From NCBI GenBank assembly GCA_963575745.1, contig CAUYUJ010000078.1:62001-118649 (forward strand): 56,649 bases of DNA, in the 5' to 3' direction. The position numbers were made by a program, and so were the translations under genes. Positions 1 to 37,284 of the stretch are shown in pieces. The notes below the pieces were generated by a model. The model worked only from the letters and a program-made list of their open reading frames with translations. It had not been told where the DNA came from and ran no database searches. How positions within the stretch are numbered: position 1 is the first letter of the stretch; each line of letters opens with the position of its first letter. Source of the stretch: Prorocentrum cordatum. Its lineage: Eukaryota.

Positions 1-852
1 TAGACAGGACTCACATGATTTCGGCTCGTCTCCGAGCATATCTGATGATATAATATCATCTTCGTCCACAAATGCTGAAACCAAAACACACTGGTCGGGC
101 AGCATAGTTGTTGGGACGCAATAAAGATAATCATCGGTAATCGTCGTAGGATGAAGGTCCATACGTAGCTCGTCGTACCACTCTTCCAGCATCATAGCTT
201 CAATATTGTGTTCCTCATTTTCCTCATAGATTGTCGACAGACGGCCTTCGCTCGGCGATGAAGCGTCTGGTGTGTCTGGAGAAGGCCTGTTTCCAGGCGA
301 CTCGTGTTCTCCAGACGTGTTGCTTGGATGCTGATATTTAGCCAAATCGTCGTGAAATCCTAAGGAAGGGACACGTGAAGTCAAGCATTGAATAAGTCTG
401 GAGTGAGTGCTACCAGTGATCTGAGAAATGTTTAAGCCAGTGCCCACGCATTCGTAATAGTGGAACGCCGGGCTGATGTCGTTGTCATAGTGGATCAGCG
501 TAGACCCGGTGGCGTACTTTACTGCAGGTAGGCTTGGCACACTCTTAGCCAATCGAACTGCTACTACATGTTCTACTCGGAAGTAATTCCGTACGAGATA
601 CTGTAGTGCTAAGTGTACGCGCGGGTGAAACTTGCTGTCGTCTGACAGATTAAGGTTTCCCTTGTAGTCGGGGATATACCCGAAAACTTTGGCAGGTTTC
701 CCTGCGCTGAGGTGTGCCACATAAGCAAGGACGGTTTGCATGGCCATGTTATCCATGCCAAGTTCCCGTGTGAGGAGACATTCGATGTATAGTGTGTGAC
801 GAGCATCAGGATACATCACAATTACCCCACGAGATCCTGCCTTGACAACAAT
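1..852 (-). CDS. Pol continuation after integrase (open to window edge)
   Basis: Manual translation shows a stop-free frame from ~852 (IVVKAGSRGVIVMYPDARHTLYIE...) to base 1. It is missing from the ORF track, probably because it has no stop in the window. Confidence 0.75.
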   Translation of the reverse strand, partial: MVVKAGSRGVIVMYPDARHTLYIECLLTRELGMDNMAMQTVLAYVAHLSAGKPAKVFGYIPDYKGNLNLSDDSKFHPRVHLALQYLVRNYFRVEHVVAVRLAKSVPSLPAVKYATGSTLIHYDNDISPAFHYYECVGTGLNISQITGSTHSRLIQCLTSRVPSLGFHDDLAKYQHPSNTSGEHESPGNRPSPDTPDASSPSEGRLSTIYEENEEHNIEAMMLEEWYDELRMDLHPTTITDDYLYCVPTTMLPDQCVLVSAFVDEDDIISSDMLGDEPKSCESCL

Positions 853-1534
853 GTCCTCTTTCAGGCACGTTTCGGATCACCGGGAATGGGCCGTTCCAGC
901 CTCCATGGTCGTCCTTGGTGGCAGTAGGTCGGTGGTAGTCGACCAAATCCCCTGATGAGTAGAGGCGAGCACCATCAGGAGTCGTCTTAGCCCTAAGAGC
1001 CCGATTTGTCTTGGCTACAGCAGTAGCCTGAGTTATGGCTTCGAGGCTGACTTCCCTTACACGACGTTCTCGTTCGTGTCCTGAAGTCTCGGGTCCCTTG
1101 GGAAAGTCAAGGGTATCGAGATCAGGAAGGAAGGAGGGCTGACGTCCTGTGTGTGCCTGATATGGCGATACTCCGTTATAAAACGTAAACGCATTAGTAA
1201 CGAAGATGCCTTCCGCCAATACTCTAGTGAATACAACAGGGATGTTGTGTCTATTCAATTCTTCCTCAATCATGTGGAGGACGCCTCTGAGAATGCCGTT
1301 TCGTGACTCAATTGAAGTCGCGTGTTGGCCAGGTGCACGGATACGAAGTTCCGTGCCCTTATTGGCCATCATGGTTTTAGCGGCATCGTTATTCAGGGCG
1401 CCTTCTCCGTCTGAGTATAAAACTTTGAAGGGTCCGTGATAGGCAATCCAGCAATAGTGGTAGGCGTCGATGATAGTGTCGCGTTCTCTGTCGGAAATCT
1501 CTAGGCCTGCTGCCAGGCGAATACAACGGTCCAT
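806..1534 (-). CDS. Integrase catalytic core (rve-like), separated from the upstream ORF by a 1-nt frameshift
   Basis: LYSDGEGAL (second D) to HATSIESRN (E), with 33 residues between them; N....GVSPYQ..TGR; GDLVDY.R...GWNGP C-terminal motif. Adding one T in a T-run at ~1541 restores IFHIMD. Confidence 0.88.
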   Translation of the reverse strand: MDRCIRLAAGLEISDRERDTIIDAYHYCWIAYHGPFKVLYSDGEGALNNDAAKTMMANKGTELRIRAPGQHATSIESRNGILRGVLHMIEEELNRHNIPVVFTRVLAEGIFVTNAFTFYNGVSPYQAHTGRQPSFLPDLDTLDFPKGPETSGHERERRVREVSLEAITQATAVAKTNRALRAKTTPDGARLYSSGDLVDYHRPTATKDDHGGWNGPFPVIRNVPERGHCCQGRISWGNCDVS

Positions 1535-4149
1535 AATATGAAAATGGTCCGTTTCTTGTAAAACATGAGGTCCATTTCCCCTTCATCGAGCCAGTTACCA
1601 GGGAGGCTTACCGATGGTAATGTCGAGTTTCCTGGACGTTCCCATGCTCTACATTCCCGACAGGTATCGCAGATTTCCTTGATCATGTTCAGTCGAACGT
1701 TATCAAGCCCCACCTTTTCGAGGATTCGCCTCATCTTTGGCTCCTTCGCATGACACCATCGCAGATGCAGTTTTCGGAGTTCCTTTGTCACAACATGGGG
1801 TTCGTGACTACGGAGACCCTGTAGACTGTGTTGGATGTCAAATCTCGCCCAGTCGGGTAGTCGTGGAGCCCCAGAGCCGGTGGAGGCAAGAGGGTTCCTT
1901 GTAGCTCTACGTAGTTGATCCCCTGTGTTGACTGCGTCTGGAGGTGGTGGTACGCCTTGTAGACGTCCGCGGCGGGCCGCTACCTGTGGCGCATCGCTAG
2001 AAGACGCAGAAGGCGTGTTTCCACGCTCGGGGGCGTCTCGTAGCAGGTCGTAGCTGCTGGTACCAGATGTCGGATCGACGTTACCGAAGGAACGTGGTCG
2101 TGGTGGCCTGGCGTGTGCGCCTTGGCGGCCACCTGAAGCTGAAGCTTGGCCCTCACCAGGTTTAGGTAGGGGTTTCCACCAAGCTGGCACGGTTTTGCCT
2201 TCGGGGTCGTGGTCGTCTGGTAGTTTAAATGGTTCAGCAAAACGACATTTACCAGGTTCGGTATCAAGGTGATTCTTAACACCCTTGCTTCTCGTAAGAT
2301 CCCTCTGACATGCTGGACATGGCCAGTATACAGAGATAGAGTCATGATATTTGCACTGCGTAGGGTCTCTGTTATGGCTAGGACTGTCCTTTCGGACGTT
2401 GTCGATGCATGCCGGGCACGTAGCCACCTTTGGGATGATACGATCACCGATGCGTCTCATACCTTCACCTGGTTCAGCTTGCTCAGGAAGGTCGGCAGGA
2501 TAAGCATGTGCAGTATTTATAGGCGCGTTTCCGCGCGTGGTGTCAATGGCTTTCGCCAAGTAGACGGCTTCCACGAAGGCAGACTGCAGTCGTCGAGTGT
2601 ATTTTTGTGCCAGTGAAAGCTCGGTGTTGCACGGTTGTGCGTGCACATGCTGACCGTTGCACTTGAGTCGCTCAAAGGGTTTAAGAATTGTCTTGTCGTT
2701 GCTGGTGATATTTGTCGGCTTCTTAATATAGTCACCAGTCGTATCTTTAAGTCCAGTAGCGCATTGATCAATGCGCACGGTCGCGATGTGTGGTCGGTTG
2801 GCAAGCTTCGTCCATGGAGAGATATCGCCCACCCATGTTCCTGTCGGTTGTTCGCGTATAAACAACCTCTGAGCGTCATCTTGGGCAACAGCAATTTTAC
2901 CACAATAGATTATGTGTGGTAAGTCTTCTCTGTGGTGCTGTTCCCAAGTGTTATAGTTGACTTTGTAGTTATAGTAAGATGGTGGTCCTGTGGTGCGGCA
3001 GCTGGGTTGCAGTATGGCAACTCGTACGTAGCATATCTTAAAGTAATGATCTATAACCTGCTGCACCGAGGGGTCTCCCAGGTCGACATATGTAGTCTTG
3101 TCCAAGTTGCCGCCTGAGGAAAGTCCCCTTGAGAAGGCAAGTTCTGAGATGCCACCCTCACCACCACAAAGCTCCAACATATCCACGCAATTGTTATGGC
3201 CGTAGCATAGCGTAGCAACTATGCTGTATATGTTAGCGTGTGTGTCGGGCATAGATGTGGGAAGGGTAAGGAACAGGTCATCGTCCTCGTCGGAGCTTAT
3301 CAGCTCAACAGGGGCGCCAGTACTCCAGGTTGCCATAAGATCCTGTCCGAGTCCTGACAAGTCATCGCCGCAATCGTCATTTCCGTCTTCGACGTGCTTT
3401 TTAATGCGGCGAGGCTTGATGCCTGCTTCCTTTTCGGCTTTGAGCCTTTCCTTCTGCTTTATACGCGATTCAGTGGGTAAAGCTTGCTCGTTTTGTTCGT
3501 CGGTCTGTGTACTCATTGTCGTGGTGGAATGGGTACATGCGTCAATCGCCAGAGTCGGGAGGGGGAGAGAACAGTCATCTATGATGACGCGTCTATGTTT
3601 CTGTGGTGATTGAGTAGGCTCGTTTCCGAGCAAGACCGGTTCCTCGGGTTGCCAATACAACCGAGTACTGATGTTGGCAACCCCTGCAGGTAATGGTGCA
3701 TGCCAATCATACCCTGTTGGTTGATCGGTAACTGAGATATCTTGAATAACCGCGTTGGTATCCAGGTTGATTGTTACACGTCGGATGACTTCAGACCATT
3801 TTGGTCCTCCCTTATGAGTCGTCACGTAGTGACGGGTATTATGGTCTGTACGTGTATACGTATTTAAGTATACGGGCACGTTTCCGTGCGTGGTGGTACT
3901 CCCCAGGATTTTGTCGTTTAAGTAACGGATGAGTGTAGTGCGTGTCTGAGCCCGCCATTCAGCATGTCGTACCGTATGGCCGTACCAGTCCAACACATGT
4001 TGTGGTATGGCCTGCTTACAGGTACATGTCCACAGCTTCGAGCTAATCGGTATCGATGATGCTACCTGCATATATGTACCACTTGGTGTACTGTCTTGCA
4101 TATTGAACCGAATACCGAAATGACACAAACGCATCCGTATTACTGACAA
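1501..4149 (-). CDS. pol: Pol part: C5-methyltransferase-like domain, two CxxC-H-C zinc motifs, integrase HHCC domain and first catalytic Asp
   Basis: HLRWCH...CDTCREC (HHCC, ~1650-1770); EMDLMF (first D); CPAC...H...C twice (~2185-2420); methyltransferase-like motifs (see separate feature). Confidence 0.85.
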   Translation of the reverse strand: MSVIRMRLCHFGIRFNMQDSTPSGTYMQVASSIPISSKLWTCTCKQAIPQHVLDWYGHTVRHAEWRAQTRTTLIRYLNDKILGSTTTHGNVPVYLNTYTRTDHNTRHYVTTHKGGPKWSEVIRRVTINLDTNAVIQDISVTDQPTGYDWHAPLPAGVANISTRLYWQPEEPVLLGNEPTQSPQKHRRVIIDDCSLPLPTLAIDACTHSTTTMSTQTDEQNEQALPTESRIKQKERLKAEKEAGIKPRRIKKHVEDGNDDCGDDLSGLGQDLMATWSTGAPVELISSDEDDDLFLTLPTSMPDTHANIYSIVATLCYGHNNCVDMLELCGGEGGISELAFSRGLSSGGNLDKTTYVDLGDPSVQQVIDHYFKICYVRVAILQPSCRTTGPPSYYNYKVNYNTWEQHHREDLPHIIYCGKIAVAQDDAQRLFIREQPTGTWVGDISPWTKLANRPHIATVRIDQCATGLKDTTGDYIKKPTNITSNDKTILKPFERLKCNGQHVHAQPCNTELSLAQKYTRRLQSAFVEAVYLAKAIDTTRGNAPINTAHAYPADLPEQAEPGEGMRRIGDRIIPKVATCPACIDNVRKDSPSHNRDPTQCKYHDSISVYWPCPACQRDLTRSKGVKNHLDTEPGKCRFAEPFKLPDDHDPEGKTVPAWWKPLPKPGEGQASASGGRQGAHARPPRPRSFGNVDPTSGTSSYDLLRDAPERGNTPSASSSDAPQVAARRGRLQGVPPPPDAVNTGDQLRRATRNPLASTGSGAPRLPDWARFDIQHSLQGLRSHEPHVVTKELRKLHLRWCHAKEPKMRRILEKVGLDNVRLNMIKEICDTCRECRAWERPGNSTLPSVSLPGNWLDEGEMDLMFYKKRTIFILWTVVFAWQQA
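2563..3183 (-). other. C5 cytosine methyltransferase-like domain
   Basis: Motif I-like MLELCGGEGG, motif IV-like LQPSC (Cys retained), motif VI-like IREQP, then DQC..G...KKPT, C..H.H and AQKY, in C5-MTase order. Confidence 0.65.
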
Positions 4150-4151
4150 CT

Positions 4152-4573
4152 TTAGATCTTCCAGAGTATCACGTACTGGAGATAACTTCCAAACATATCC
4201 TGGGGGACCGAATATGATGATTTCATGCGGAGTTTCTTGGCTTTTATCAACAGGTTCTGGATACGTGACCAGTGTGGGGCCACTCTCTTTCCTGGAGTTC
4301 GTATATACCAGTCACCCGGAGTACTGATCCATATGAGAGTGTAATCTCCACTGATCACCGCACCTAGATAGTTTGTGCCCACGCTTGTCATAAGTTCGTG
4401 TGGGAAATACGGTCACAAATATAACCTCGTGTGCGGAGGTCGGCGCATGCCTCCCTCGTATCTTCAATGACAAAAGCCCTCTTACTAAGGCAGGTTGCCC
4501 CGCTGTCCTTGTTACCCCCCGGCTTTTCAGCCATCAGGCAAGACGACGAGGGGGCGACGTCGCCCTGCCATCT
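4152..4573 (-). pseudogene. Interrupted polyprotein linker
   Basis: After the TGA at 4574-4576 the same frame continues (RWQGDV...AFVIEDTREACADLRTRGYICDRISH), then shifts frame near 4395 and 4220 to join the 1501-4149 ORF. Confidence 0.6.
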
Positions 4574-7500
4574 TCAAGATGAAGAAGATGTGCCTACAAT
4601 ATCTGCCAGCATCTGGGCTTCCCTCAGATGCTGGAGCTCAGCACTGCAGCGCGCCGTGGCCTCAGAGGCGGATTGCTCCGCAAATGCTGTCAGCATCGAT
4701 GGATTATCCATCAGCTGTTTCAGCACGCCTTTGGACCTAGCGTCGCTGACCGTATGCAATTCACGATTAGTGTATCCCATCACTATTTTACGGCGGGACT
4801 GCACAGCGTCCATGGGTACACTACCACCATGCAGGGCCAGTGTCCTGGCAACAAAACAATCGAACGTCTCGAGATCGTCGATGTTGTCGCCTCGCATGGT
4901 GGCCTTGGCGAGCGTCTCCATCAACCCCTGGGGCAGGTTTCCCTGCAATTGATTGCGCTCCTGCGCTGGGGTCGGCTCGCCTGTCAGCACTGTCTGGAAG
5001 GACGTGCTGCTTGAGCTCGAGGCGGGTTGCCCCGCAGCTCCAAAACAATCACACCTGATCGACAGATGCCCTGACGGCAACTTTGTCGTCGGCATGATTT
5101 TGGAGCCTTCTGGGAGCTCCATTTTGACCTGCCCCTTACCAGGGAATATCAGCTTTTCCTGGCCTCGTTCAAGCACGATGATCGTGCGTTTGTCCTGCAT
5201 ACTGTCGAGACCTAGGATGGCTGGCAGGTCCTTTCCACAGCCTGACACAATGTTCGTCTTGTATGAATCGTGTTGGGCTGACCCCTGGTACTCGCAGGCA
5301 ATGCTAAATGTGCCTACGGTATCCGCTGGGGCCGAACCCTCTCCCACTCCGTTGATATGCAAACGAGAGCGGGGCTCGAACGTACAAGCACGACCATGTG
5401 ACTCAGCAGCCTGGACGAACTTACGGCTCGTGTTCTCGCCCATGATGTTGATCTTCGAACCGACGTCGATGAGTATGGAATTTCCACCGTCATCCAAGAA
5501 CGTCTTACTCGGCTGCTTGATGTGCACAGTTTCTGAAGTGTCGGCTGTGTCGGTAGGCGGGTTTCCCCGCGGCACATTCGTACTCCCTGGCGGGTTACCC
5601 CGCACGACACTGGCATGCGACTCGCTCTCGGCCATGCGTGCCAGGTCAATGTACTGGAAGTACGACACGTGCTGGGCGTGATCACCACGCTCCTCCCGCC
5701 AGTTGGCATACTCATCACGTATGCTCATATACTGCTCGCGGGTAGTGCGCCTTATCAGCGTTAGGTACGAGTGAAGGGCGATGTCTTGCAGCCCCTCGTT
5801 CGTGACGTGATCCCGGTACCGCAACCACTCCTCGAACTCCTCATTCGTCGCTGGGATGTTGACGGCCCTGGCTGCTGTTGCTGCTGACGCCGCTGAGGAT
5901 TCTGATAGGTCTAACGACGGACTATCAGTTTCAGGATTATTGGCATCTAGCATAAGCGTTGTGTGTGTATTACCCATCTGATTCTGGAAATGTCGTACAC
6001 GCAACTCGCGCAGCTGATCAGGGCCCAGTGACATCTCAGCCTCGCCTCCACTCTGGGGAGACATCTGAGGAGTATCATGCAGGTTTCCCTGCTGAGGCGC
6101 CGTCATCGGGATAAGCTGATCGAAATATCCCGTTGCCAAAGGCGGCCTTACCTCTTCAGGCAGGTGTCCCTGCTGGTGTGACGAAACTGTCTGCAAAGCT
6201 AGCATCCTGGTCGTCATCTCCTCCACCATACTCCTCAGCTCCCGCAGCTCCCTCGCTGACTGCTCGGGAGTCTGACTAAGGGAGCCAGTCCATGGGAAGG
6301 ACGATGTTATAATGCCAGGTGCACGACAGATCGCGCATGGTGGCTGCTGGGGATCTCCCCCACGCTGGTTTGTCACGTGGCCCACCACGTTAGAATTCCA
6401 GCATCCCTCGTGGAATAGGTGATTGCACCTCAGGCGGTACACACTATCCCTGGGCTGAAATTCTTCGAGGCATACAGCACAGGTGTCCTCCATCCCAGTA
6501 AAGACTTCTACGTCTGCTACCCTGGGATATACCCGCCGCTGCCTCTCCAATACCGTCTCGGAGGGCATGAAGGCTGATGGGGGTGTCCCCGCTGGATTCA
6601 GCACTTCCTGCACTTCGACATTTGGCATGGAAGTGGTAGGAGTCACGGCAGGCGAGTTTCCTCGCAAAGGTGAGCCCCTATTCCGCACCACGTCGAGTGC
6701 AGCTGCACGTGACTGGTCCCGTACACTTTGCACCGCCTGCCTCCTCCTGAAACATGCCTGCTGAGTGTGGTGCGTCTGCCTGATGTAGTCAGGCACGCCC
6801 CTACTGCCAGACGATATTGAATGGGCAGTGGGTTGCACAACCACCTCTGGTGATGTTGGAGAAGGCATGAAGGCCATGTGCGGGTACATGGAGTGGTCAC
6901 TGCAGCGCACATTGGTGAGGTTATGCATCTGATCCGCCAATTCCCGAACAAATTTGTTCGGGACCCTTGTACCGTCAGGGTATAATGGCGGATTCATCTG
7001 CGTGGGTGGTGGCCTCTGGCCCTGAGACATGCTCGGATGGGCGTTGAACGCCGGGATAAAGGCTCGTTGCCGAGCGGGGTCCCGTGGGTTGGGACCCTCC
7101 GGTTCCCAGGACCAGGCTGGCCTCCACCTCTGTCCACTTGGGTGAGGCAGATTATGGTTCTGCACCTGCTGTACCGCGGCCGCCACTCTTGAGCGATAGT
7201 CGTCGGGTATACCCGCCCTGTGGTGGCTTGGTGTACCAGGCAGGTTTCCCTGCTGACTCGTTGGCGTGCCGGGCGGCATCATGTTGAGGAGGGCTGTGCT
7301 GTGATCAGCCCTAGCCGCAGCTAACCTCTCCATGAGTGTGCCGTTTACGGCAGGGCGGACAGGTGTCCCAAATGGGGATTGTGCTGGCGGAGTGCCCGAT
7401 GGAGTCATGCCCCTTGGAGTGTGCATGCTCTGTGTGGGGCTTGCGTGCATTGGCTCGAACCGAGCAGGTCCGCTTGTAGGCAGGTTTCCCTGCATGGCTT

Positions 7501-10500
7501 GACGATTTCTCGTGGCCATAGCGGACATTGCTCCCTGGCCTGCGGCCCAGGGATCCTGCTGGTACAGCCTGTCCGCCAGCTGTTCTACCTGGTCAGGGTT
7601 CAGCGAAGCTGCAATCTGATGCAGGTCTGAAGTACTTATGGCCTGCCAAGACACGGCGCTCGGCCCTTGGCTTGGGGCACGGCTTGGAGCCGCGCTCCCG
7701 GCCTCACTCTCGGTGATCATAAAGATCCGAAAGATCTCAGGCTGGTTTCCCAGCTGGGTGGGGCTGTAGTGGTCCCCAACGTCCCTGTGGAGGTAGATCA
7801 TGGCTGGATCAGCGCCCTCTTGGTCTCGGGACCACTGGTACTTAATGCTGGAATTACCAACATCAGCCCACCTATCTGAGGCAGTCATCGTACTGACAGA
7901 GACTCGCACACGGCGGCTCCCCAAATATTCTGGGTTGCGCCATTGCCTTCCAGTGGTCAGGTCCTCTACATGGGAAATGTAATACGGTTCAATGATACCG
8001 TTATCTCCCTCGGACAAGAGGACTCCGTTATCGGACCAACAGAACTTCATACCATCTTGTATGGCCTTGCGCCAATCTACAAAGATGACGAGGTCTGAAT
8101 CTGGGTCCCACCCACTGTTCACGGCACGGCGGCGCACTGTCGGCACGAAATGGATGTGTGAACGGCCTGTCCCCCTTTCCTTCGTGTTGTGCTCAGGTCT
8201 ACAGGACAGGCCGTACCACATGATACCTTCGAAAGCGTGCCATCGAGTGCCATGCATGGCGACTTCAGGGTATGGGGCCGGTCTCCCGGCGGGTTCGTCG
8301 CACAGTACAATGTAACTGTACAGCGACCATGGAGCTTTCAATGTCCATGAATGCCCCTGAGAGGCGCGGACGAAGATAGCGGGCTCGCCGGAGTCCCGCA
8401 TTAGCACCTTGAATTGAAGGCGCTGTTTTTCTTCTCCGTCTGGTTCACGAACATGAACAACTTCCATCATGATGGCTGCGAGTTGGTCAACCGAGCGACC
8501 ATACAACTGCTCGCTAATGACTTTGGCCTCGTCATATTTTGGGTTATGTCCAGCGTGCCTCGAGTGACCTGTGTTCCACGGAAAGTCAGCCACGAGTTCC
8601 ACGAGGTTAATCCAACCATCATGATCATCACAGGATCTCAGGCGCCACACAGGATTATGTGACTTATCTGGCGCATGTCTACATATCCTGCTGAGAGCTT
8701 TGCTTAACTTTTTAAGAGCATCATTGGATGTGGGAAGAATTCCGGCCTTCCTGCATTCCTTCATGAATGACTCATCCACCGAACGTATCGGTGGGAGCTT
8801 CCGAAGTGCCAGTCTACCCCTAATCAGATCTGGAGTCCCACTAGTAAAGGATGTGTCTGATGGGTGGTGCAGCTGAACTACTGGCGGGTTTCCCCGCATC
8901 GGAGCCTCTGTTGCCGAAGAGGCTGCGGCCCCAGAAGAGGAGGAAGCTGCGGCAGCAGCGCCTGGCGGGTTTCCCCGCGGAGATGCGCGACTGGCGCTGC
9001 CCCTGATCTTCGGCACCCAGTTACCCCTCGACATAGCACCTTCATCGGACCTCCTGGAACGAGCCGCCACAGGCGAAGCTGGCGCGGGTGCATACCCACT
9101 GCGCTCGAAAGCTGCCGCCCTTTTCGCAATGGACTTGCTGCGACTAAGCGGGCGTCTTCGTTCCTCCATAGGGTCCTGAGGTTGCTGCTTGGGCACAAAC
9201 GCTTGTGGAGGAGTTGCGCCAATTGGCGGCCTCGGCGTCGCAGATCGAGGCACCTCCATATGCACGTCTGGCCCAAGGCTCTGAGAGCTCGCCTTCGGTT
9301 TCGGCTCCGGAGACGGCTTAGGTGTCGGGGGTTCACTCTTAGCCTTCGAAGTTAGTGGGAGTGGGGGCTTCCTAGCCCCCTTCATGTAGATCGTGCTGGA
9401 ATCCTCCAACATCTTGCGAGTTGCCTCGCGCGTGCGTTCTTCTACTGTCCGAATACGCTCCTCATCCTCCGCCACACGTTGAGCCTTTGTCTCGTCCTTG
9501 ATGATCGGCTCTGGTTGTTGGGACTGGCTAGAGACGCCAGGCGAGTTTCCTCGCATACCAGGAAGACTAAAGAGCGCGTCTTTCTCTTCCTGGGTCATGG
9601 CTACCATTCCCCTTGGAGCCGGAGTAGGTTTCTCTTCTTCTTTCGGATCCAAGTGGCCCGAGATCCCGAGACGACTATTCACTACTGCGATCTCTTCCGG
9701 TGTCATCGGGTCAAGTGGCGGATGGCCCTCTTTAGGAGGGGTTTTGCCCCTGTTAGGGCTCAGGCCTTCGTTGTTTCCAACGGGGCATCCTGGCCTGTGA
9801 TTCTGGAACGGCTGGGAACAAGGACCGCATGCAGCGTGAGGCCTATACTGCTTGCGAGCCGCGATAATATCTCGCAACTGGGTCCGCGCTTCTTGAATTT
9901 CAGGGCGGCGGATGTTTGTTGCAAGCTGATAGCCTCCACGGATGGGCCTGCCATCGCCGTCCCTATAGGCAGGATTGCCCTGGCCGAAGGCCGAGTGTTC
10001 CCCTTTTCGGCGTCGTGGGTCGTTGTGCGGAAGTAGCTGGCCACCTCTTCTGAGAGCGTGTTCCTTTGGGCCAGCCTGTCTCCACTCACGAGGAAGTCGA
10101 GCCTGGGGATGTGGCTCTTCTCTGACGCGCGTATGGGAACGAGATCTTCTGGTGTTCTCATCAGAAGAAGCTGCCGATGCAGCAGGAGCGGCACCCGTTG
10201 GAGGTGCTTGAGGAGGCTCCTCTGCGATCCCAGATGGATCGCTCGATGGAGGCAGGTCTCCCTGCTGGGTGGAGCTCGGCGCAAGTGGCTCTTGTGCCGA
10301 TGGTGATGATGATTCAGACTCATCAGGGTCGAAATCGACCTCTTCCTCACCAGTCACGTCCATCATGAGGATGGTGACGTCATCCTCATCTAACCCACAA
10401 CCATCGCCTTCTACTTCTTCTGATGTCGAACTACCAATTATGATGGCCATTGGCGCATCTGGTAAAAGCAGGTTTCCCTGCATGGCCGGCGTCTGGGCGT

Positions 10501-10738
10501 CGCTCGGCTGTCCTGGAGTAGGAGGCGCAGTCGTCGGCTCAGGGTCATCGACGAGCATAGGCTGCCTAGCAATGTTACGCATGGCCGTATGGTTTGGCCT
10601 CATCCCCAGCTCCTGGAGATTCCATCCTGGCGGGGGAAAATCATGACCACGCATAGCCATGGCCATTTCCAGGGCACGACGCCATCTACCATGGGAGTAT
10701 ATCAAGTGTCTCTGCACTTCCTGAGGATTTACTGTCAA
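4574..10738 (-). CDS. Polyprotein middle part (2054 aa): low-complexity linkers, Tpt1/KptA domain, RING-H2 finger, retropepsin-like protease
   Basis: Long ORF overlapping the gag ORF end with a +1 frame offset (~10686-10745); the domain motifs are listed as separate features. Confidence 0.85.
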   Translation of the reverse strand: MTVNPQEVQRHLIYSHGRWRRALEMAMAMRGHDFPPPGWNLQELGMRPNHTAMRNIARQPMLVDDPEPTTAPPTPGQPSDAQTPAMQGNLLLPDAPMAIIIGSSTSEEVEGDGCGLDEDDVTILMMDVTGEEEVDFDPDESESSSPSAQEPLAPSSTQQGDLPPSSDPSGIAEEPPQAPPTGAAPAASAASSDENTRRSRSHTRVREEPHPQARLPREWRQAGPKEHALRRGGQLLPHNDPRRRKGEHSAFGQGNPAYRDGDGRPIRGGYQLATNIRRPEIQEARTQLRDIIAARKQYRPHAACGPCSQPFQNHRPGCPVGNNEGLSPNRGKTPPKEGHPPLDPMTPEEIAVVNSRLGISGHLDPKEEEKPTPAPRGMVAMTQEEKDALFSLPGMRGNSPGVSSQSQQPEPIIKDETKAQRVAEDEERIRTVEERTREATRKMLEDSSTIYMKGARKPPLPLTSKAKSEPPTPKPSPEPKPKASSQSLGPDVHMEVPRSATPRPPIGATPPQAFVPKQQPQDPMEERRRPLSRSKSIAKRAAAFERSGYAPAPASPVAARSRRSDEGAMSRGNWVPKIRGSASRASPRGNPPGAAAAASSSSGAAASSATEAPMRGNPPVVQLHHPSDTSFTSGTPDLIRGRLALRKLPPIRSVDESFMKECRKAGILPTSNDALKKLSKALSRICRHAPDKSHNPVWRLRSCDDHDGWINLVELVADFPWNTGHSRHAGHNPKYDEAKVISEQLYGRSVDQLAAIMMEVVHVREPDGEEKQRLQFKVLMRDSGEPAIFVRASQGHSWTLKAPWSLYSYIVLCDEPAGRPAPYPEVAMHGTRWHAFEGIMWYGLSCRPEHNTKERGTGRSHIHFVPTVRRRAVNSGWDPDSDLVIFVDWRKAIQDGMKFCWSDNGVLLSEGDNGIIEPYYISHVEDLTTGRQWRNPEYLGSRRVRVSVSTMTASDRWADVGNSSIKYQWSRDQEGADPAMIYLHRDVGDHYSPTQLGNQPEIFRIFMITESEAGSAAPSRAPSQGPSAVSWQAISTSDLHQIAASLNPDQVEQLADRLYQQDPWAAGQGAMSAMATRNRQAMQGNLPTSGPARFEPMHASPTQSMHTPRGMTPSGTPPAQSPFGTPVRPAVNGTLMERLAAARADHSTALLNMMPPGTPTSQQGNLPGTPSHHRAGIPDDYRSRVAAAVQQVQNHNLPHPSGQRWRPAWSWEPEGPNPRDPARQRAFIPAFNAHPSMSQGQRPPPTQMNPPLYPDGTRVPNKFVRELADQMHNLTNVRCSDHSMYPHMAFMPSPTSPEVVVQPTAHSISSGSRGVPDYIRQTHHTQQACFRRRQAVQSVRDQSRAAALDVVRNRGSPLRGNSPAVTPTTSMPNVEVQEVLNPAGTPPSAFMPSETVLERQRRVYPRVADVEVFTGMEDTCAVCLEEFQPRDSVYRLRCNHLFHEGCWNSNVVGHVTNQRGGDPQQPPCAICRAPGIITSSFPWTGSLSQTPEQSARELRELRSMVEEMTTRMLALQTVSSHQQGHLPEEVRPPLATGYFDQLIPMTAPQQGNLHDTPQMSPQSGGEAEMSLGPDQLRELRVRHFQNQMGNTHTTLMLDANNPETDSPSLDLSESSAASAATAARAVNIPATNEEFEEWLRYRDHVTNEGLQDIALHSYLTLIRRTTREQYMSIRDEYANWREERGDHAQHVSYFQYIDLARMAESESHASVVRGNPPGSTNVPRGNPPTDTADTSETVHIKQPSKTFLDDGGNSILIDVGSKINIMGENTSRKFVQAAESHGRACTFEPRSRLHINGVGEGSAPADTVGTFSIACEYQGSAQHDSYKTNIVSGCGKDLPAILGLDSMQDKRTIIVLERGQEKLIFPGKGQVKMELPEGSKIMPTTKLPSGHLSIRCDCFGAAGQPASSSSSTSFQTVLTGEPTPAQERNQLQGNLPQGLMETLAKATMRGDNIDDLETFDCFVARTLALHGGSVPMDAVQSRRKIVMGYTNRELHTVSDARSKGVLKQLMDNPSMLTAFAEQSASEATARCSAELQHLREAQMLADIVGTSSSS
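5180..5480 (-). other. Retropepsin-like aspartic protease domain
   Basis: ILIDVGSKINIMG active-site-like motif (DVG instead of D[ST]G), flap-like INGVGEG, C-terminal LPAILGLD. Confidence 0.75.
6321..6483 (-). other. RING-H2 (C3H2C3) zinc finger
   Basis: CAVCLEEF...LRCNHLFHEGCW...CAICR, i.e. C-x2-C...C-x-H-x2-H-x2-C...C-x2-C. Confidence 0.88.
7960..8715 (-). other. TPT1: Tpt1/KptA (PTS_2-RNA) NAD+-dependent RNA 2'-phosphotransferase domain inside the polyprotein
   Basis: Family motifs in the correct order: LSKALSRICRH, DGWINL, KQRLQF, RASQGHS, HGT, GL, RSHIHF, SG, VIFVD, GMKF, SDNGVLL, GII. Confidence 0.9.
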
Positions 10739-13304
10739 TGAGAGTCAAAGCTGCCAAGAGTAGCTCTGAGCTACCGCAAGCATCATTATCTTGTTCTGTC
10801 ATAATACCAGCTTCAAATTGTTCTTGACTCTCAGGATATGCAATTGCAAGTATCTCATGCATCCACATGAGGGTCTGCAAAAGTGCACGCGGTCCATATT
10901 CGCCTGGAGCAAGCGAACCAGGAGGTATGAACGGAGAACCTGGTTCGCCTGCAATGAAGGCCTGAACAAATGCTTGAGACTCCATTTCAATGAAGTCTTC
11001 AGTGGTCTGGGGATATTCCCCCATCAAAGAAGGCCTGTTTCCAGGCGGGATTTCGGGCGGATGTTCGAGGTTCCGTTGAACCTCGGAAGGCGAAGCCTCT
11101 ATAATGGTGTCCTCGTCGTCGCTCTCGTAGGCCATGATGTTGCCTGGGTTCCCGAACATCCAGTCGAGGAAGGAAAGAGGCTCGTTTCCGAGCGTACCGT
11201 GTTCCACGGGAGTGAGTTCATTACTGCCCGTGACGAACCGGCGGACGTACTCGAGGTAATACGCGTATAATCCATGACCATACCCCTCGAGCTCGTCAAT
11301 GTTGTCCACGCCAACGACCCATGTGAAAAATATCTGTTCCATAGCCTCAAAGTCCTGGAGGCTCAGATACTCAATGGATGGTGTGCTTGAGCCGAAATGG
11401 ACTTCGGACGACATGCCCTTTCCATTTCCCTTCGCTGGACAATCTCGCACAAGATGATCGGCACTACCACATTCATGGCATTTGAGAACCTGGCCGTCTC
11501 TAACTCGCGGGTTTCCCCGCCTACCTTTACCTTTACCTGAGGTCTCTCTACGGCCTTTACCACGGCCTTTTCCCCCAAAGAATATCTCATCATGTTGTTC
11601 ATCGGAGAGCCTCTGGAGAAATGCCGCGATACCTCGCCCGTTCAACCTCCGACGACCACGCTTGCCTTTGCCCTTTCCTTTAAAACTCCTACGTATCCTC
11701 CTTCTGACACGACGCACTGGTTTTCGTGTGAACCTCCTCCACCTTCGTTTAGCCTGTTGTAACAGCCAGAATAAATGCTCAGCACGCTGATTGTCATTAT
11801 CCAGATTCATGATATCTGACCAATCTAGAGCTTCAACACCATCTGATGATATAGTGTCTGTATCGGTGCCGGAGTCGAAATCTTCGTCTCCTAAATAGGT
11901 GGATACACCGTCGGTTAGGGGATTTGATTCCCCCCATAACGAGCGGTGTGGTTGTGGTTCTCTAGAGGGAGGGCTGGTTGCCCAGCTTGGTTGTGATCGA
12001 TCCCCTGCTAGTAAAGCAGTGGCTTCTCCTGAATCGTCGGCCCATATGTTTGAGGGCCCGTTTCCAGGCTGGGCTTCAGTGGTCAAGGTAGTGTAGAAAT
12101 TTCCACTACCAGATCCTCTTCCTCTTCCAAACACGGATCCTATGTTACCAGGAGATCGTTCGGATAGGTGGCCTACCGAACGCATTCTCTCCAGCAACTC
12201 ATCATACTGTTGTTGTGTTCGAGGCATTTGGTGATTGAGTGGCTGTAAGAGTTGCATGGCCTTCTGGTTGCCGACGCCTAGGGCGCGGAATAGGATAGTA
12301 GTTAACAGTTGGAAGTTGGGAAGGTCGAATCCCACCGACTGTGCCTCAAGTCGGGCCATTTCGAATCGGGTAAGAGTAACATCGATTCGTTCCCCGTGAG
12401 GCACATGGAAGTCAATAAGTTGTGTGCCGGAAGTGAGCTGTCGCTCATCTTCCAGGCGTTCGAATTTCATGCTGAGGAGAAACATAATATAAGTTACTGG
12501 GTCTGTGTGGACCCCGTCGATATCAGCGCCATAGTTTATGATGTCAGGCGGTACCCTCATGGCGAGTGTCCTCGCTAGGCCTCCCAGGCCGCGTTGTATT
12601 GCGGCCGCTTGGGCCTGTGGCGTCATACGTCCGCTTGTAACGTTGGGCCACGCGTTGACCTCGTAAATGTACTCACGAAAAGGTACATTACCCTGAGGGT
12701 CCCAATATGGGCCATGTGTTTGCCCATCGGTGCTGTTATCTCCCCGACGCATGCGTGCGATTGCTGCCCCCAGCGCGAACCATATGATAGCGAAAACGAT
12801 TAGCCCGAGAATGTGTAACGAAGGACGGTTATGATGAGCGGTGTCGCGCTGGGGTAGCGCCTTGTCGAGTCTTCGAGGCGCTCTGTCTGGCGGGTTTCCC
12901 CGCCCTTGCTTCAGGTATTGCGTTATTGGCTCGTTGCCGAGCGGTTGATAGTAACGCAATGATGAAGCGTATATGGTACCAATCTGGTCGTCTAGACGTC
13001 GTACCTCTCGTGTAGCTTCTTGCTCTTGAATAGATCCTCGTAAATGTACTGGGAGTGGTGGCGCAGGGTAGTAGGTGGTCACGAAGATCGTGCCGAAGAA
13101 TGTGAGGCTGAGAAGAGCAAGAGCTGACCACACGAGAGTGCGGCCAGCTCCGCTACCAAGTCGAAAGTGAGCCTGGTAACTCAAATAAGGCATATAGCCT
13201 GGCAAATAGCATCCATCGCTCTGCTGTGAGGGTACAGTATGAGGGGTGGATGGGTAAGATAGGATAAGATCGATGTAATGATCTTTCCAGCACATAGCGA
13301 ACAC
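10686..13304 (-). CDS. gag: Gag-like polyprotein N-terminal part, with CCHC zinc knuckle
   Basis: Capsid-like segment GPYWDPQGNVPFREYIYEVNAW...QAAAIQRGLGGLARTLA; basic KGKGK/RR tract; knuckle CHECGSADHLVRDC (~11439-11480). The true start may be the internal Met of MRRGD (~12753). Confidence 0.85.
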   Translation of the reverse strand: MFAMCWKDHYIDLILSYPSTPHTVPSQQSDGCYLPGYMPYLSYQAHFRLGSGAGRTLVWSALALLSLTFFGTIFVTTYYPAPPLPVHLRGSIQEQEATREVRRLDDQIGTIYASSLRYYQPLGNEPITQYLKQGRGNPPDRAPRRLDKALPQRDTAHHNRPSLHILGLIVFAIIWFALGAAIARMRRGDNSTDGQTHGPYWDPQGNVPFREYIYEVNAWPNVTSGRMTPQAQAAAIQRGLGGLARTLAMRVPPDIINYGADIDGVHTDPVTYIMFLLSMKFERLEDERQLTSGTQLIDFHVPHGERIDVTLTRFEMARLEAQSVGFDLPNFQLLTTILFRALGVGNQKAMQLLQPLNHQMPRTQQQYDELLERMRSVGHLSERSPGNIGSVFGRGRGSGSGNFYTTLTTEAQPGNGPSNIWADDSGEATALLAGDRSQPSWATSPPSREPQPHRSLWGESNPLTDGVSTYLGDEDFDSGTDTDTISSDGVEALDWSDIMNLDNDNQRAEHLFWLLQQAKRRWRRFTRKPVRRVRRRIRRSFKGKGKGKRGRRRLNGRGIAAFLQRLSDEQHDEIFFGGKGRGKGRRETSGKGKGRRGNPRVRDGQVLKCHECGSADHLVRDCPAKGNGKGMSSEVHFGSSTPSIEYLSLQDFEAMEQIFFTWVVGVDNIDELEGYGHGLYAYYLEYVRRFVTGSNELTPVEHGTLGNEPLSFLDWMFGNPGNIMAYESDDEDTIIEASPSEVQRNLEHPPEIPPGNRPSLMGEYPQTTEDFIEMESQAFVQAFIAGEPGSPFIPPGSLAPGEYGPRALLQTLMWMHEILAIAYPESQEQFEAGIMTEQDNDACGSSELLLAALTLIDSKSSGSAETLDILPW
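11386..11408 (-). other. Relic dinoflagellate spliced leader inside the gag ORF
   Basis: TCCGAAGTCCATTTCGGCTCAAG versus DinoSL TCCGTAGCCATTTTGGCTCAAG: 2 substitutions plus 1 insertion; translates as EVHFGSS. Confidence 0.65.
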
Positions 13305-13385
13305 AAGCAGTGTCCGGGCAAATAGGACGCGCGTGCCTTGAGCCCAAGGCAGCGGCGCGCGAGCTATGCTCCCGATACTGTAACA
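13274..13385 (-). repeat. Candidate short 5' LTR (~112 bp)
   Basis: On the minus strand it starts TGTTA (13385) at the element/satellite boundary and ends TTACA (13274), and contains a TGCCTTG-GGCT-CAAGGCA hairpin. The second LTR is not in the window and no canonical TGG primer-binding site follows, so the inner boundary is uncertain. Confidence 0.4.
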
Positions 13386-13399
13386 TATCCCAAAGAGCT

Positions 13400-13835
13400 A
13401 CCCTTAAAGTCCTGAGAGGCCCCCAAGATGCGTCCCAAGACGGTCCCTGGACGCAGACATGTACGTATTCCCGTCGTGAAACGTACAATGTTCACACATC
13501 CGCCTTCTGGGCTTTCCGACGCTCCTAGACGGCCCAAGAGGCCCCGAAAACCGCCCCAAGACGGCCCAAGAGGCCCCCAAGACGGCCCCGCGACGGTCCA
13601 ATATGGCCCCAAGACGGCCCAAGAGGTCCCCAAAACGGCCCAAGAAGGCTCCAAGACGGCACCAAGAGGGGCCCAAGAGGGCAACCAACAATTCAAAAAT
13701 CTAGTTTTCCGCCCCCACGAGCCCCAGGGGGCCCCAAGAGCGCCCCAACAGGCCGCCAACGGCCCTCAAGAAACCGCCAAGACGCCCCAAGGAGCCCACA
13801 AGAGGCCCCCAGGAGGCCCCCAAAAGACCCCCAGA
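13400..13835. repeat. Degenerate GGCCC(C)AAGA satellite (related tracts at ~17400-17520, 18985-19190, 26480-26690)
   Basis: Repeated ggcccaaga/gccccaaga/cccaagacgg units of about 10-21 bp. Confidence 0.8.
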
Positions 13836-36050: not shown

Positions 36051-37284
36051 GGGACGCGCGGTAAAAGTGCAAGGCCCAGGCAAGGCCCAGAGATGGGCCG
36101 AAGTGGCAAGAACGTGAGGGCAACAAGATTGCCCATCCTTACCACGCGGGCCGACTGAAACATCACGAGCAGGAGCACGAGCAGGAAGAGAGGAAGAATA
36201 ATGGTGGGAGACGGAAGAGAAGAGGATGGGCCCAGGATCTACTTTAACAACAATATGTTGAATTCGGCGCCTTATGTTGCTTCAATTCTATTCATTTAAA
36301 TCGTTTCCAACCTCGCGCGCAGGAGCCCGCGGCGGGGCCCCGCGGGGGCGAGACAAAAAAAGGGATTAAAAAAAGTTCGGCCCCGGGGGGGGGGGCTGAA
36401 GGAGGAGGAAGAGAAGGAGGGGAAGGAGAGGACAAGAAGAAGGAAGAGAAGACAAAACATGTCTGATGCAGTTGCTAGGCAACGCGAAGCGACAGCAACT
36501 TCGTTCCGATATATAAAAGAAGAGGAACATAAGAAGAATAAACACGAGAAAAGCTGAAGAAAGATGAGGAAGAGGAATCCCGCTCGGCCGTCTCCGCCTC
36601 GAGCCTCGTGGCCTCGAATTGCTTGTAGACACTCGCAGCAGAGTCGGCCGTCTCGTAAAGCGAGGCTGTCAGCTTCTCGCGCGAGCTCGGGGCCGCGGGC
36701 GGCGAGGTCTGCAGGCCCCAGAGGCTCGACGGGCTCGTCTGCTTCGTCGGCGCGGACATCGGAGCCTCGCTGCAAAGCTGCAGTAGCTCGAAATAGAAAA
36801 CCTCGAGCCAACGTGGCTACGGAAGGCTGCAGGCTTCTGGCTGCTGTTGGTGCGTCCTTGATTGCTGCTCGCTGTTACCCGCGTTTTGTCAGCGTTATGT
36901 TGTTAACTTGCCGTTGGAGCTCCTGAGTGTTGGCTTGTTGTTATTGCTTGTGGTGTTGCTGTTGTGGCTTGCTGTTGCGTCGGTTGCTGGTGTCGCTGTT
37001 GTGCGTACTGTTGCTTCTCCCGTTGTTGGTGGTGCCGTTATTGCGCTGGTTGCTGTTGCTGTCGTTTGTGTGACCGCTGCTGTTGGTCGCGCGCGTTGTG
37101 CTGATTGCGCGTGCGATTGTTTTCTGTACCGTTGGTCTTGTTGCTCTCGCACCTGTCTCTCGTTGTCGCTGTTTTTCTCTGGCGCCCTCTAAGCCGGGGG
37201 CCACCTCGCTGAGAGCCCCCAGCGCCTCGCCCCCACTCTGCCCGAAAACACCTCGCCCAGAGCCCCCAGCGGCTCGCGCGGCGC

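What the first reader, a model, noticed from the sequence alone, without database searches (positions are those of the whole stretch)
11386..11408. Relic spliced leader just downstream of the Gag knuckle, where the cargo region begins
Seen: a near-complete DinoSL (20 of 22 positions plus one inserted base) lies about 30 nt after the CCHC knuckle, in sense orientation, and is read through as HFGSS. In ordinary copia elements the protease follows the knuckle closely; here about 5.9 kb containing Tpt1 and RING intervenes. Established: relic SLs mark reverse-transcribed, trans-spliced mRNAs in dinoflagellate genomes. Inference: the cargo was captured as a full-length host mRNA, probably by RT template switching, leaving a footprint of the capture mechanism.
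Basis: partly seen in the sequence, partly recalled or inferred. Interest (0 to 1): 0.78.

Follow-up and report, generated by a model that had tools for sequence, protein, structure and literature searches.

The report
Relic spliced leader inside copia retrotransposon
A near-perfect copy of the 22-base leader that dinoflagellates splice onto every mRNA sits in frame just after the Gag zinc knuckle of a high-copy copia-type retrotransposon; this fossil shows the element once recombined with a trans-spliced RNA, possibly while acquiring extra coding sequence.

Summary
Window 11386-11408 (minus strand) matches DinoSL at 20 of 22 positions with one extra base. It lies 30 nt after the CCHC knuckle and is read as SSEVHFGSS. 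Chance gives about 0.005 such matches per window. Only 0.1% of synonymous recodings of the peptide look this SL-like.

The element family is multi-copy in three public runs. There the majority letter restores the exact DinoSL 3' 15-mer, so the family consensus is nearer the leader than this copy is. This is a genuine, family-wide relic SL.

RING is not cargo: 28 of 36 long relatives carry it upstream of the protease, with knuckle-to-RING linkers of 125-817 aa. Tpt1 is family-specific (0 of 36).

A weakly significant clade motif (DPW, window 7547-7555) suggests a family-specific block of about 3.8 kb, from 11408 to about 7600. The SL sits at its 5' edge, six bases after the clade-typical GKG linker. 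Loss of homology after the knuckle is normal in this clade, so it does not prove a breakpoint.

I found no host parent gene, no poly(A) and no flanking duplication. Capture of a foreign SL-capped RNA is my best reading (0.5). Re-incorporation of the element's own trans-spliced RNA is the main rival.

The parts
11386..11408 (-). Relic DinoSL: 23 nt, 20 of 22 positions plus one inserted base in this copy; 21 of 22 plus one base in the family majority
11439..11480 (-). Gag CCHC zinc knuckle (CHECGSADHLVRDC, P0001 609-622)
   Evidence: Pfam zf-CCHC E 0.0014; clade NC profile 161 bits, E 7e-51; coordinates
11409..11438 (-). Clade-typical P-A-K-G-N-G-K-G linker, then 6 nt (ATGTCG) of unassigned origin directly before the SL
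   Evidence: relatives show CP-x-KGKGKG after the knuckle
10686..13304 (-). ORF1: Gag (homology P0001 163-625), the SL-derived peptide and a family-specific tail, ending at a TAG stop
10689..11385 (-). Family-specific ORF1 tail directly downstream of the SL. An in-frame ATG lies at 11340-11342, with 218 codons to the stop. Homologues are known only as fragments of family members.
10686..10744 (-). ORF1/ORF2 overlap; ORF2 is in the +1 frame. ORF1 ends at about the same place in the 45%-identical relatives P0061/P0155.
4574..10738 (-). ORF2: low-complexity N-terminal part, Tpt1, DPW motif, RING, protease
8006..8713 (-). Tpt1/KptA RNA 2'-phosphotransferase domain (ORF2 676-911), the family-specific extra domain
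   Evidence: PF01885 E 6e-22, profile 4-177 of 177; PDB 7yw3_A E 3e-11; 0 of 36 relatives; family fragment P0159 at 71% identity
7547..7576 (-). ADRLYQQDPW: probable clade-conserved post-knuckle motif, and the suggested 3' limit of the family-specific block
   Evidence: motif in 47 of 87 relatives, mostly 43-172 aa after the knuckle; best six-frame hit 5.0 bits, E 0.008, with 1 of 300 shuffles as good
6323..6487 (-). RING finger (ORF2 1418-1472), ancestral to the clade and not cargo
5042..5509 (-). Aspartic-protease homology region (ORF2 1744-1899)
   Evidence: 36 BLASTP HSPs to relatives
806..4311 (-). ORF3 and ORF4: conserved unknown domain, integrase zinc finger and integrase core. They are collinear with P0090, whose RVT_2 domain follows. 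The element runs off the window start before the RT.

Best explanation
The 23-mer is a genuine relic DinoSL that was present in the founder of a high-copy Ty1/copia-type family. It is now simply translated as part of the linker after the nucleocapsid knuckle.

Most likely origin. During minus-strand DNA synthesis the element's reverse transcriptase was copying an SL-capped (trans-spliced) RNA that was not the element's own genomic RNA. It ran to that RNA's 5' end, copied the leader, and switched non-homologously into element RNA six bases after the clade-typical GKG linker. The SL therefore marks the 5' joint of foreign sequence. It stands at the start of a family-specific block of about 3.8 kb (11408 to about 7600). 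That block holds the ORF1 tail, a stop and +1 frame change, low-complexity sequence and the Tpt1 domain.

Shown: the SL identity, its age (family-wide) and its position at the edge of unshared sequence.

Inferred: template switching, the foreign origin of the downstream sequence, and whether the block arrived in one event (my odds: about 0.3 for one event including Tpt1, about 0.2 for the ORF1 tail only). I assign no present function to the relic.
For: (1) Not chance. 2 hits at distance <=3 and 0 at distance <=2 in 400 shuffled windows. 0.1% and 0.006% of synonymous recodings reach distance 3 and 2.

(2) The family consensus is closer to the leader than this copy. At 11394 the majority letter is A (X1 277 of 457, X3 1130 of 1439, X9 23 of 30 depth units). 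This gives the exact DinoSL 3' 15-mer CCATTTTGGCTCAAG. The change at 11408 falls on the leader's degenerate first position. A diverged copy in X9 keeps CCATTTAGGCTCAAG (table 7).

(3) Protein fragments of family members at 70-75% identity read S[STA]EV[HQ][FSL]GSS at the site.

(4) Typical relic SLs stand upstream of host genes in the same window (43482-43502 exact; 36802-36822), so retroposition of SL-capped RNA is active in this genome.

(5) Native clade sequence runs to the GKG linker, and the SL starts 6 nt later. Of 112 alignments to non-family proteins, 95 end at or before residue 640.

(6) The downstream sequence is family-specific. ORF2 matches relatives only at RING and PR. A profile of the ORF1 tail finds no non-family relative below E 0.2. 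The clade's GPL motif (33 of 87) is absent. The DPW motif, mostly 43-172 aa after the knuckle in relatives, is 1311 aa after it here.

(7) Tpt1 is in 0 of 36 long relatives.

(8) The layout SL, 43 nt, in-frame ATG, 218 codons, stop resembles an mRNA 5' end. The ORF also ends at about this place in 45%-identical relatives, while 33 clade relatives have knuckle and RING in one protein.
Against: No parent gene or any homologue of the ORF1 tail was found outside the family. Only the best 150 of 1199 hits were visible, and rely on shared words, so this is a weak negative.

There is no poly(A) remnant anywhere on the sense strand, no duplicated nucleocapsid segment after the block and no further SL relic.

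Linkers are unalignable between most clade members anyway: 4 of 315 pairs at 30-40% Gag identity keep an HSP. So 'homology stops here' carries little weight.

The DPW anchor is only marginal (5.0 bits, E 0.008).

The block carries the element's own GNRA-hairpin signature at full density (11 of 32 hairpins in 3.8 kb), which the rest of the window lacks. So it is either old or not foreign.

The ATG at 11342 is V or L in 3 of 6 family sequences.

Tpt1 begins 2.7 kb from the SL, while the solved TRPT1 chain is 253 aa.
Confidence: 0.5

Rival explanations
1. The element's own RNA was the donor. The element's transcript (or a sibling copy's) was SL-trans-spliced at an internal acceptor after gag. The truncated SL-capped RNA was co-packaged, and reverse transcriptase copied its leader and then jumped into full-length RNA. 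Only about 23 nt were inserted. The long family-specific linker and Tpt1 have separate histories.
For: Dinoflagellate nuclear mRNAs receive the SL (abstracts of PMC6050394 and PMC6027434 in the listing). This route needs one non-homologous switch and a 7-8 codon insertion in a linker that tolerates lengths of 125-817 aa. No host homologue of the downstream sequence was found. The downstream sequence carries the element's hairpin signature, with a compensatory change at 11190/11183 among family copies. There is no poly(A) and no flanking duplication.
Against: It does not explain why the clade's GPL and DPW motifs are missing or displaced by about 1150 aa exactly from this point. It also does not explain why ORF1 now ends in a stop at a shared position where 33 relatives read on. 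A homologous switch before the leader would be the usual outcome and leaves no trace (inference from retroviral copy-choice, recalled).
Confidence: 0.27
2. One reading: the whole 5.9 kb between knuckle and protease, including Tpt1 and RING, is one captured full-length host mRNA.
For: The SL is at the upstream end of that interval. Tpt1 is foreign to the clade.
Against: RING upstream of the protease is present in 28 of 36 long relatives and gives 35 HSPs. The RING-to-PR arrangement is collinear with P0090. A DPW motif typical of the native linker lies between Tpt1 and RING. There is no poly(A).
Confidence: 0.03
3. Chance or peptide-driven resemblance: a conserved linker peptide (VHFGSS-like; compare LHFATS in P0046/P0047/P0067) happens to be encoded by SL-like DNA.
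For: Several distant relatives have an F/H-containing motif 15-45 aa after the knuckle, such as SLHFATS and GLHFAAF. The spacing from knuckle to SIEY/SIQY is similar in P0006 and P0005.
Against: Given the peptide, only 0.1% of recodings are within distance 3 and 0.006% within distance 2. The random expectation is 0.0006 for the element strand. The match extends 5' of the HFGSS codons. The family majority is closer to the SL than this copy.
Confidence: 0.03
4. Functional internal leader (compatible with either origin). The relic keeps an AG (CCGAAG) and, in most copies, the leader's ATTTTGG. It is re-used as a trans-splice acceptor or Sm-type site to make an SL-capped subgenomic mRNA starting at the ORF1 tail/Pol.
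For: AG within relic SLs is discussed as a splice site in PMC6616646 section 4.5. An in-frame ATG lies 43 nt downstream. The relic is kept across diverged copies.
Against: No RNA evidence could be obtained. The variant density in the 23-mer (at least 2 listed sites) is not visibly lower than in the flanks: 40 listed plus 77 unlisted in 1001 nt. This copy has lost the ATTTTGG.
Confidence: 0.1

Closest known systems
Relic DinoSL of dinoflagellate retrogenes (DNA-encoded leader left by retroposition of trans-spliced mRNA). Sources: abstracts of PMC6050394 and PMC5585692 in the listing; passages of PMC6616646; Slamovits and Keeling 2008 recalled, not seen.
   Same: The same 22-nt leader, DNA-encoded, in the sense of the downstream reading frame. 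It is followed at 43 nt by an ATG and an ORF ending in a stop. Canonical examples lie in the same window (43482-43502, 36802-36822).
   Different: It lies inside a retrotransposon polyprotein ORF and is translated. It is fused in frame to Gag. It is propagated as part of a multi-copy element rather than marking one retrogene. No parent gene is known and there are no tandem truncated relics.
Host-gene capture by LTR retrotransposons and retroviral transduction. Examples: arthropod Copia elements with a captured MBD (PMC6673714, abstract start in the listing); captured genes in rice and sorghum LTR elements (PMC3726574, abstract start in the listing); DNMT-bearing SymbioLINE/SymbioDIRS (PMC5890265, passages).
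   Same: A host-type enzyme domain (Tpt1) sits in frame inside the polyprotein of an otherwise conventional element and is absent from relatives.
   Different: Here a leader sequence would mark the 5' end of the captured RNA, a footprint those systems cannot leave. PMC5890265 states that Symbiodinium Copia elements lack a DNMT domain. No Tpt1-bearing retrotransposon appeared in the 12 listed papers.
Symbiodiniaceae Ty1-copia-like elements (SmTCL1-4; PMC5776459, main text read)
   Same: Dinoflagellate copia-order LTR elements of about 10 kb, at high copy number.
   Different: That paper describes RT, integrase, RNase H and LTRs only. It mentions no RING, Tpt1 or internal SL. Relatedness to this family was not tested.

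Membership tests
Relic DinoSL (retroposition footprint) | Close match to the 22-nt DinoSL, beyond chance | tested here: met
   20 of 22 plus 1 insertion in this copy; family majority 21 of 22 plus 1. 0.005 expected per window. Codon-aware null 0.1%.
Relic DinoSL (retroposition footprint) | DNA-encoded and in sense orientation to the downstream transcribed or coding sequence | tested here: met
   On the minus strand, the same strand and frame as ORF1. Present in contigs of three runs, two flagged 'DNA?' and one of unknown kind.
Relic DinoSL (retroposition footprint) | Sits at the 5' end of a retro-copied mRNA (5'UTR, start codon, intron-less ORF) | tested here: inconclusive
   ATG 43 nt downstream, then 218 codons to a stop shared in position with 45%-identical relatives. 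The ATG is V or L in 3 of 6 family sequences, and everything is read through from Gag.
Relic DinoSL (retroposition footprint) | An identifiable parent gene or homologue of the retro-copied sequence | tested here: not met
   Only family fragments were found. The Atlas gave no lead. The searches have limited reach.
Ty1/copia LTR retrotransposon | Gag with a CCHC nucleocapsid knuckle | tested here: met
   1199 homologues at E<=0.001.
Ty1/copia LTR retrotransposon | Domain order PR - INT - RT (RVT_2) | tested here: inconclusive
   PR and then integrase are in order and collinear with P0090, which carries RVT_2 at 3058-3288. The RT itself lies beyond the window start.
Ty1/copia LTR retrotransposon | Flanking long terminal repeats | not testable with these tools
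   The 3' end is outside the window. There is no second copy in the window and no genome is held.
Gene transduction by RT template switching | A foreign domain absent from close relatives | tested here: met
   Tpt1 PF01885 in 0 of 36 long relatives. RING fails this test (28 of 36).
Gene transduction by RT template switching | Junction of native and foreign sequence coincides with the SL | tested here: inconclusive
   Native GKG linker ends 6 nt before the SL. However, linkers are unalignable in 311 of 315 comparable pairs.
Gene transduction by RT template switching | 3' signature of the captured RNA (poly(A) or 3'UTR) or a flanking duplication | tested here: not met
   No run of six or more A and no A-rich 20-mer. 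No second NC-like segment.

The most novel reading that the evidence does not exclude
The internal leader is not only a fossil. Dinoflagellate copia elements of this family would use it, through its retained AG and Sm-like ATTTTGG, as a built-in SL trans-splice acceptor. That would make a capped subgenomic mRNA for the ORF1 tail and Pol, the trans-splicing counterpart of retroviral cis-spliced subgenomic RNAs. The relic itself would have arisen by recombination with that very RNA.
Probability: 0.1. Interest if true: 0.8.

Novelty: new variant of a known kind. Interest (0 to 1): 0.55.

Why it matters
Every dinoflagellate mRNA carries the same 22-nt 5' tag, so a DNA-encoded copy marks exactly where an RNA molecule began. 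An in-frame, family-wide relic SL inside a retrotransposon polyprotein shows that the element's reverse transcriptase copied an SL-capped RNA to its end and joined it to element RNA. Other eukaryotes cannot leave that footprint.

If the downstream block proves host-derived, the family gives a dated, base-resolved example of mRNA transduction by an LTR element, with a Tpt1 RNA 2'-phosphotransferase as cargo. It would also tie the retrogene flood of dinoflagellates to a specific class of elements.

If the donor was the element's own RNA, the relic shows that retrotransposon transcripts are internally trans-spliced.

Either outcome can be tested from full-length copies and stranded RNA data. Papers holding DinoSL or spliced leader together with retrotransposon, LTR or template-switching terms showed no such case in their listings. 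I did not read those papers beyond listings, apart from the ones cited.

Tried and rejected
- Whole genome and earlier findings: neither is held or open.
- Other copies in the window: none. Only microsatellite matches outside 1-13500.
- Metagenome scan with the knuckle-to-tail peptide: one locus, L001. Its ORFs look phage-like to me (no family search was run), and its match is forced by the search pattern YAYYLEYV. It is not a relative.
- Exact-pattern scans for the family's SL junction in genome contigs and viral contigs: 0 matches each.
- Protein searches for the ORF1 tail: 'near' found one family fragment, 'longer' found none. Tpt1 'near' found one family fragment, so the source of Tpt1 could not be placed.
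- ESM Atlas on the tail: recognition 1183, best hits unnamed at 0.90, no lead.
- AlphaFold2 of the knuckle-to-tail segment with 11 sequences: mean pLDDT 35, unusable, so no fold search was run.
- GPL-motif profile against the window's post-knuckle proteins: nothing. My candidate 'GPRALL' is not supported.
- Second nucleocapsid copy after the block (my reading of GNPAYRDG...CGPC in ORF2): no profile hit.
- Poly(A) remnant: none.
- Further or truncated SL relics in the element: none.
- Base composition by region: no sharp step, and two regions were out of frame in my script. Not used.
- RNA run X20: no contig laid, which says nothing about expression.
- Summed word depth is about twofold higher on the knuckle side than on the tail side, with a step near 11410 in X1, X3 and X9. 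Contig depth cannot rank parts and the knuckle is more conserved, so I did not use it.
- Rfam at gathering threshold on the whole window: 0 matches.
Full report
**What is there.** The element lies on the minus strand, from about 13304 to the window start.
- ORF1 (10686-13304) is Gag with a CCHC knuckle (CHECGSADHLVRDC, 11439-11480).
- Thirty bases after the last Cys codon the strand reads TCCGAAGTCCATTTCGGCTCAAG (11408-11386).
The 21-nt core CCGTAGCCATTTTGGCTCAAG is printed in PMC6616646 section 2.2; the degenerate first letter is recalled.
- It is in the sense of the element and is translated as SSEVHFGSS (P0001 632-640).

**Is it more than chance?** Yes, on three counts.
- A gapless search misses the site because of the extra base, but it finds two ordinary relic SLs in the window: 43482-43502, exact, and 36802-36822, three mismatches. 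The expectation was 0.01.
- An edit-distance scan finds the site as one of three hits at distance <=3. In 400 dinucleotide-preserving shuffles of the window there were 2 hits at distance 3, 64 at distance 4 and none closer. That is about 0.005 per window and about 0.0006 for one strand of the 13.3-kb element.
- If the peptide rather than the DNA were what matters, only 0.1% of synonymous recodings, weighted by the element's codon usage, would be within distance 3 and 0.006% within distance 2.

The two canonical relics stand upstream of ATGs of host genes. So this is a genome in which SL-capped RNAs are retro-copied.

**The family.** The window holds no second copy and no genome is held. However, 20 of the 24 listed public runs hold part of a 2-kb stretch around the site. 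I laid the contigs of X1, X3, X9 and one RNA run on 10900-11900 at 80% likeness or more. 1412, 570 and 39 contigs were laid for X1, X3 and X9, at summed word depths in the hundreds to thousands for X1 and X3. The family is therefore multi-copy.

At the site:
- 11394 is A rather than G in most of the depth (X1 277 of 457, X3 1130 of 1439, X9 23 of 30). On the minus strand this restores the exact DinoSL 3' 15-mer.
- 11408 is mostly T (X1 703 of 1169, X3 1894 of 1962, X9 25 of 32). This changes only the leader's degenerate first position.
- The three bases just after the SL (11383-11385) are mostly TCA, giving GSSEP as in fragment P0066.
- A more diverged X9 contig keeps CCATTTAGGCTCAAG.
- 77 lower-supported variant rows were not shown, so rarer variants in the 23-mer cannot be excluded.

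The family majority is therefore one substitution and one extra base from the leader, closer than this copy. That is what descent from a real SL predicts. X3 contigs 11 and 12 bridge the site. Protein fragments of family members at 70-75% identity read S[STA]EV[HQ][FSL]GSS through it.

**What is normal for this clade.** A full HMMER search with Gag plus tail gave 1199 proteins at E<=0.001, of which I saw the best 150.
- Most are 33-47% identical in Gag.
- Where they are long enough, they continue from the knuckle through a low-complexity linker into a RING finger and then the protease, all in one protein.
- In 33 relatives with both knuckle and RING, the linker is 125-817 aa.
- Pfam finds a RING family in 28 of 36 relatives of 1000 aa or more, and Tpt1 in none. 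P0090 also carries RVT_2.
- The window is collinear with P0090 through Gag, RING, PR, an unknown conserved domain and integrase.

Here the knuckle-to-RING distance is 1667 aa, so about 850-1540 aa are extra. Tpt1 is the one recognisable extra domain: PF01885, E 6e-22, full profile; best solved relative 7yw3_A, tRNA 2'-phosphotransferase 1, E 3e-11.

**Does a breakpoint coincide with the SL?** Native sequence can be followed through the knuckle into P-A-K-G-N-G-K-G, a linker type seen in many relatives. The SL starts six bases later.

Of 112 phmmer alignments to non-family proteins across residues 561-720, 95 end at or before residue 640. The other 17 run on to 641-665 with only scattered identities. 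ORF2 matches relatives only at RING (35 HSPs) and PR (36 HSPs). A profile of the ORF1 tail finds no non-family protein below E 0.2.

This fits a breakpoint, but a control shows it proves little. Among the relatives themselves, only 4 of 315 pairs at 30-40% Gag identity and 5 of 35 at 40-50% keep any linker HSP.

Two short clade motifs help somewhat more:
- GPLxxLL occurs within 130 aa of the knuckle in 33 of 87 relatives and is absent here.
- D[PA]x?W, often as DPLxxxDPW, occurs in 47 of 87, mostly 43-172 aa after the knuckle.
- The best six-frame match of the element to a profile of the DPW motif is ADRLYQQDPW in ORF2 (7547-7576), in the right frame and order. It scores 5.0 bits, E 0.008, and 1 of 300 shuffles does as well. 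It lies 1311 aa after the knuckle.

I read this as a family-specific block from 11408 to about 7600. The block contains the SL, the ORF1 tail, the ORF1 stop with a +1 frame change, about 675 aa of low-complexity sequence, Tpt1, and about 430 nt more. The 3' limit is only suggestive.

**What came in with the SL?** The layout just after the leader resembles an mRNA 5' end: 43 nt, an in-frame ATG (11340-11342), 218 codons and a stop (10686-10688). The 45%-identical fragments P0061, P0154 and P0155 end within 4-15 residues of the same place, whereas clade relatives read on. That favours an inserted cassette with its own stop.

Several points weigh against a simple 'full-length host mRNA':
- No homologue of the tail was found outside the family.
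- There is no poly(A).
- There is no duplicated nucleocapsid segment and no second relic.
- The ATG is V or L in 3 of 6 family sequences.
- Tpt1 starts 2.7 kb from the SL, although the solved TRPT1 chain is 253 aa and homology begins near its residue 22.
- The block carries the element's own hairpin signature (described below).

A canonical 22-nt leader would put the downstream frame out of register with Gag. The extra base may therefore be a later frame-fusing change (inference only).

**Mechanism and odds.**
- The stretch is SL-derived: about 0.9.
- It marks the joint made when reverse transcriptase copied a foreign SL-capped RNA to its 5' end and switched into element RNA: 0.5. Of this, about 0.3 is one event including Tpt1 and about 0.2 is the tail only.
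- The donor was the element's own internally trans-spliced RNA, so that only the leader was inserted: 0.27.
- Chance or peptide-driven resemblance: 0.03.
- The literal 5.9-kb version including RING: 0.03.
- A present function as a trans-splice acceptor or Sm-type site is not excluded (0.1) and could not be tested. The one RNA run gave no contigs.

**Comparison with known systems.** As a sequence, it is a relic DinoSL. As a setting, inside a translated polyprotein ORF of a propagating element, I found no precedent in the listings. Domain capture by retrotransposons is known: DNMT in SymbioLINE/SymbioDIRS (PMC5890265, passages) and MBD in arthropod Copia (PMC6673714, listing). PMC5890265 says Symbiodinium Copia elements lack DNMT. 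No Tpt1-bearing element appeared. This copy itself looks degenerate, with at least four frame breaks over 13 kb.

**The hairpins, seen in passing.** The sense strand of the element carries 32 perfect hairpins of the form GCNNG-GNRA-CNNGC. The antisense strand carries 2, each strand of the other 43 kb carries 1, and shuffles give 0.45. The 12 distinct stems are all complementary. Among family copies the paired positions 11190 and 11183 change together (C-G to G-C) at matching depth in three runs. This looks like a selected RNA structure and may deserve its own report.

Noticed in passing
window 24-12942, minus strand (e.g. 11507-11520, 11180-11193, 11033-11046, 8965-8978, 8884-8897): There are 32 perfect 14-nt hairpins of the form GCNNG-GNRA-CNNGC (loops GAAA 22, GCAA 6, GAGA 3, GTAA 1) on the element's sense strand. 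The antisense strand has 2, each strand of the remaining 43 kb has 1, and dinucleotide shuffles give 0.45 (max 4 in 300). There are 12 different stems, all complementary, and stems almost never extend to 6 bp. Most are translated as xGNxP, and a few lie in another frame. In family copies 11190 and 11183 change together (C-G to G-C) at equal depth in X1, X3 and X9. GN is 1.5-fold enriched in the relatives' proteins. One literature search found nothing. These may be dispersed RNA signals, for example for packaging..
   Followed up: partly
window 43482-43502 (+); 36802-36822 (-); 37723-37737 (-): Three other relic DinoSLs were seen. The first is an exact 21-mer directly after a long CT/CCT microsatellite, about 170 nt upstream of an ATG at 43675. 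The second has 3 mismatches and lies about 40 nt upstream of an ATG. The third is a weaker relic at distance 4. They look like ordinary retrogene footprints.
   Followed up: partly
window 8006-8713 (-): A complete Tpt1/KptA RNA 2'-phosphotransferase domain sits inside a copia polyprotein. It is absent from 36 long relatives and present in the family fragment P0159 (71% identity). Why a retroelement would carry an enzyme that removes RNA 2'-phosphates is unexplained. I did not check the catalytic residues.
   Followed up: partly
window 6323-6487 (-) and relatives P0005, P0015, P0027 and others: A RING-H2 finger between Gag and the protease is a clade-wide feature of these copia-type elements (28 of 36 long relatives). 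This is unusual for Ty1/copia and may point to a ubiquitin-ligase activity of the polyprotein.
   Followed up: partly
window about 2290-3480 (-), ORF3 residues 277-675: A conserved domain between protease and integrase is shared with P0090 residues 1747-2178 (27% identity, E 1e-36) and has no Pfam hit. It contains ELCGGEGG and PSC motifs. From memory these resemble motifs I and IV of SAM-dependent cytosine methyltransferases; this is a recalled resemblance and was not tested.
   Followed up: no
window 10686-10744 (-): ORF1 and ORF2 overlap by 56 nt, with ORF2 in the +1 frame. The overlap contains CTT-GAT-A, which resembles (from memory) the Ty1 CUU-AGG-C +1 shift site. ORF1 also ends here in the 45%-identical relatives, so this may be a true gag/pol junction rather than decay.
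   Followed up: partly
window 1-13304 (-): This copy has further frame breaks: between 4574 and 4311, near 1501-1582 and near 806-876. It runs off the window before the RT, so it is probably a decayed copy.
   Followed up: no
proteins P0003, P0048, P0056, P0066, P0116, P0143, P0153, P0159: The closest protein fragments (70-91% identity) are filed by their source under a green-alga label (a Pyramimonas sp. data set in EukProt). Yet the window carries dinoflagellate leaders. That data set may hold dinoflagellate-type sequence, or the family may be wider than thought.
   Followed up: no
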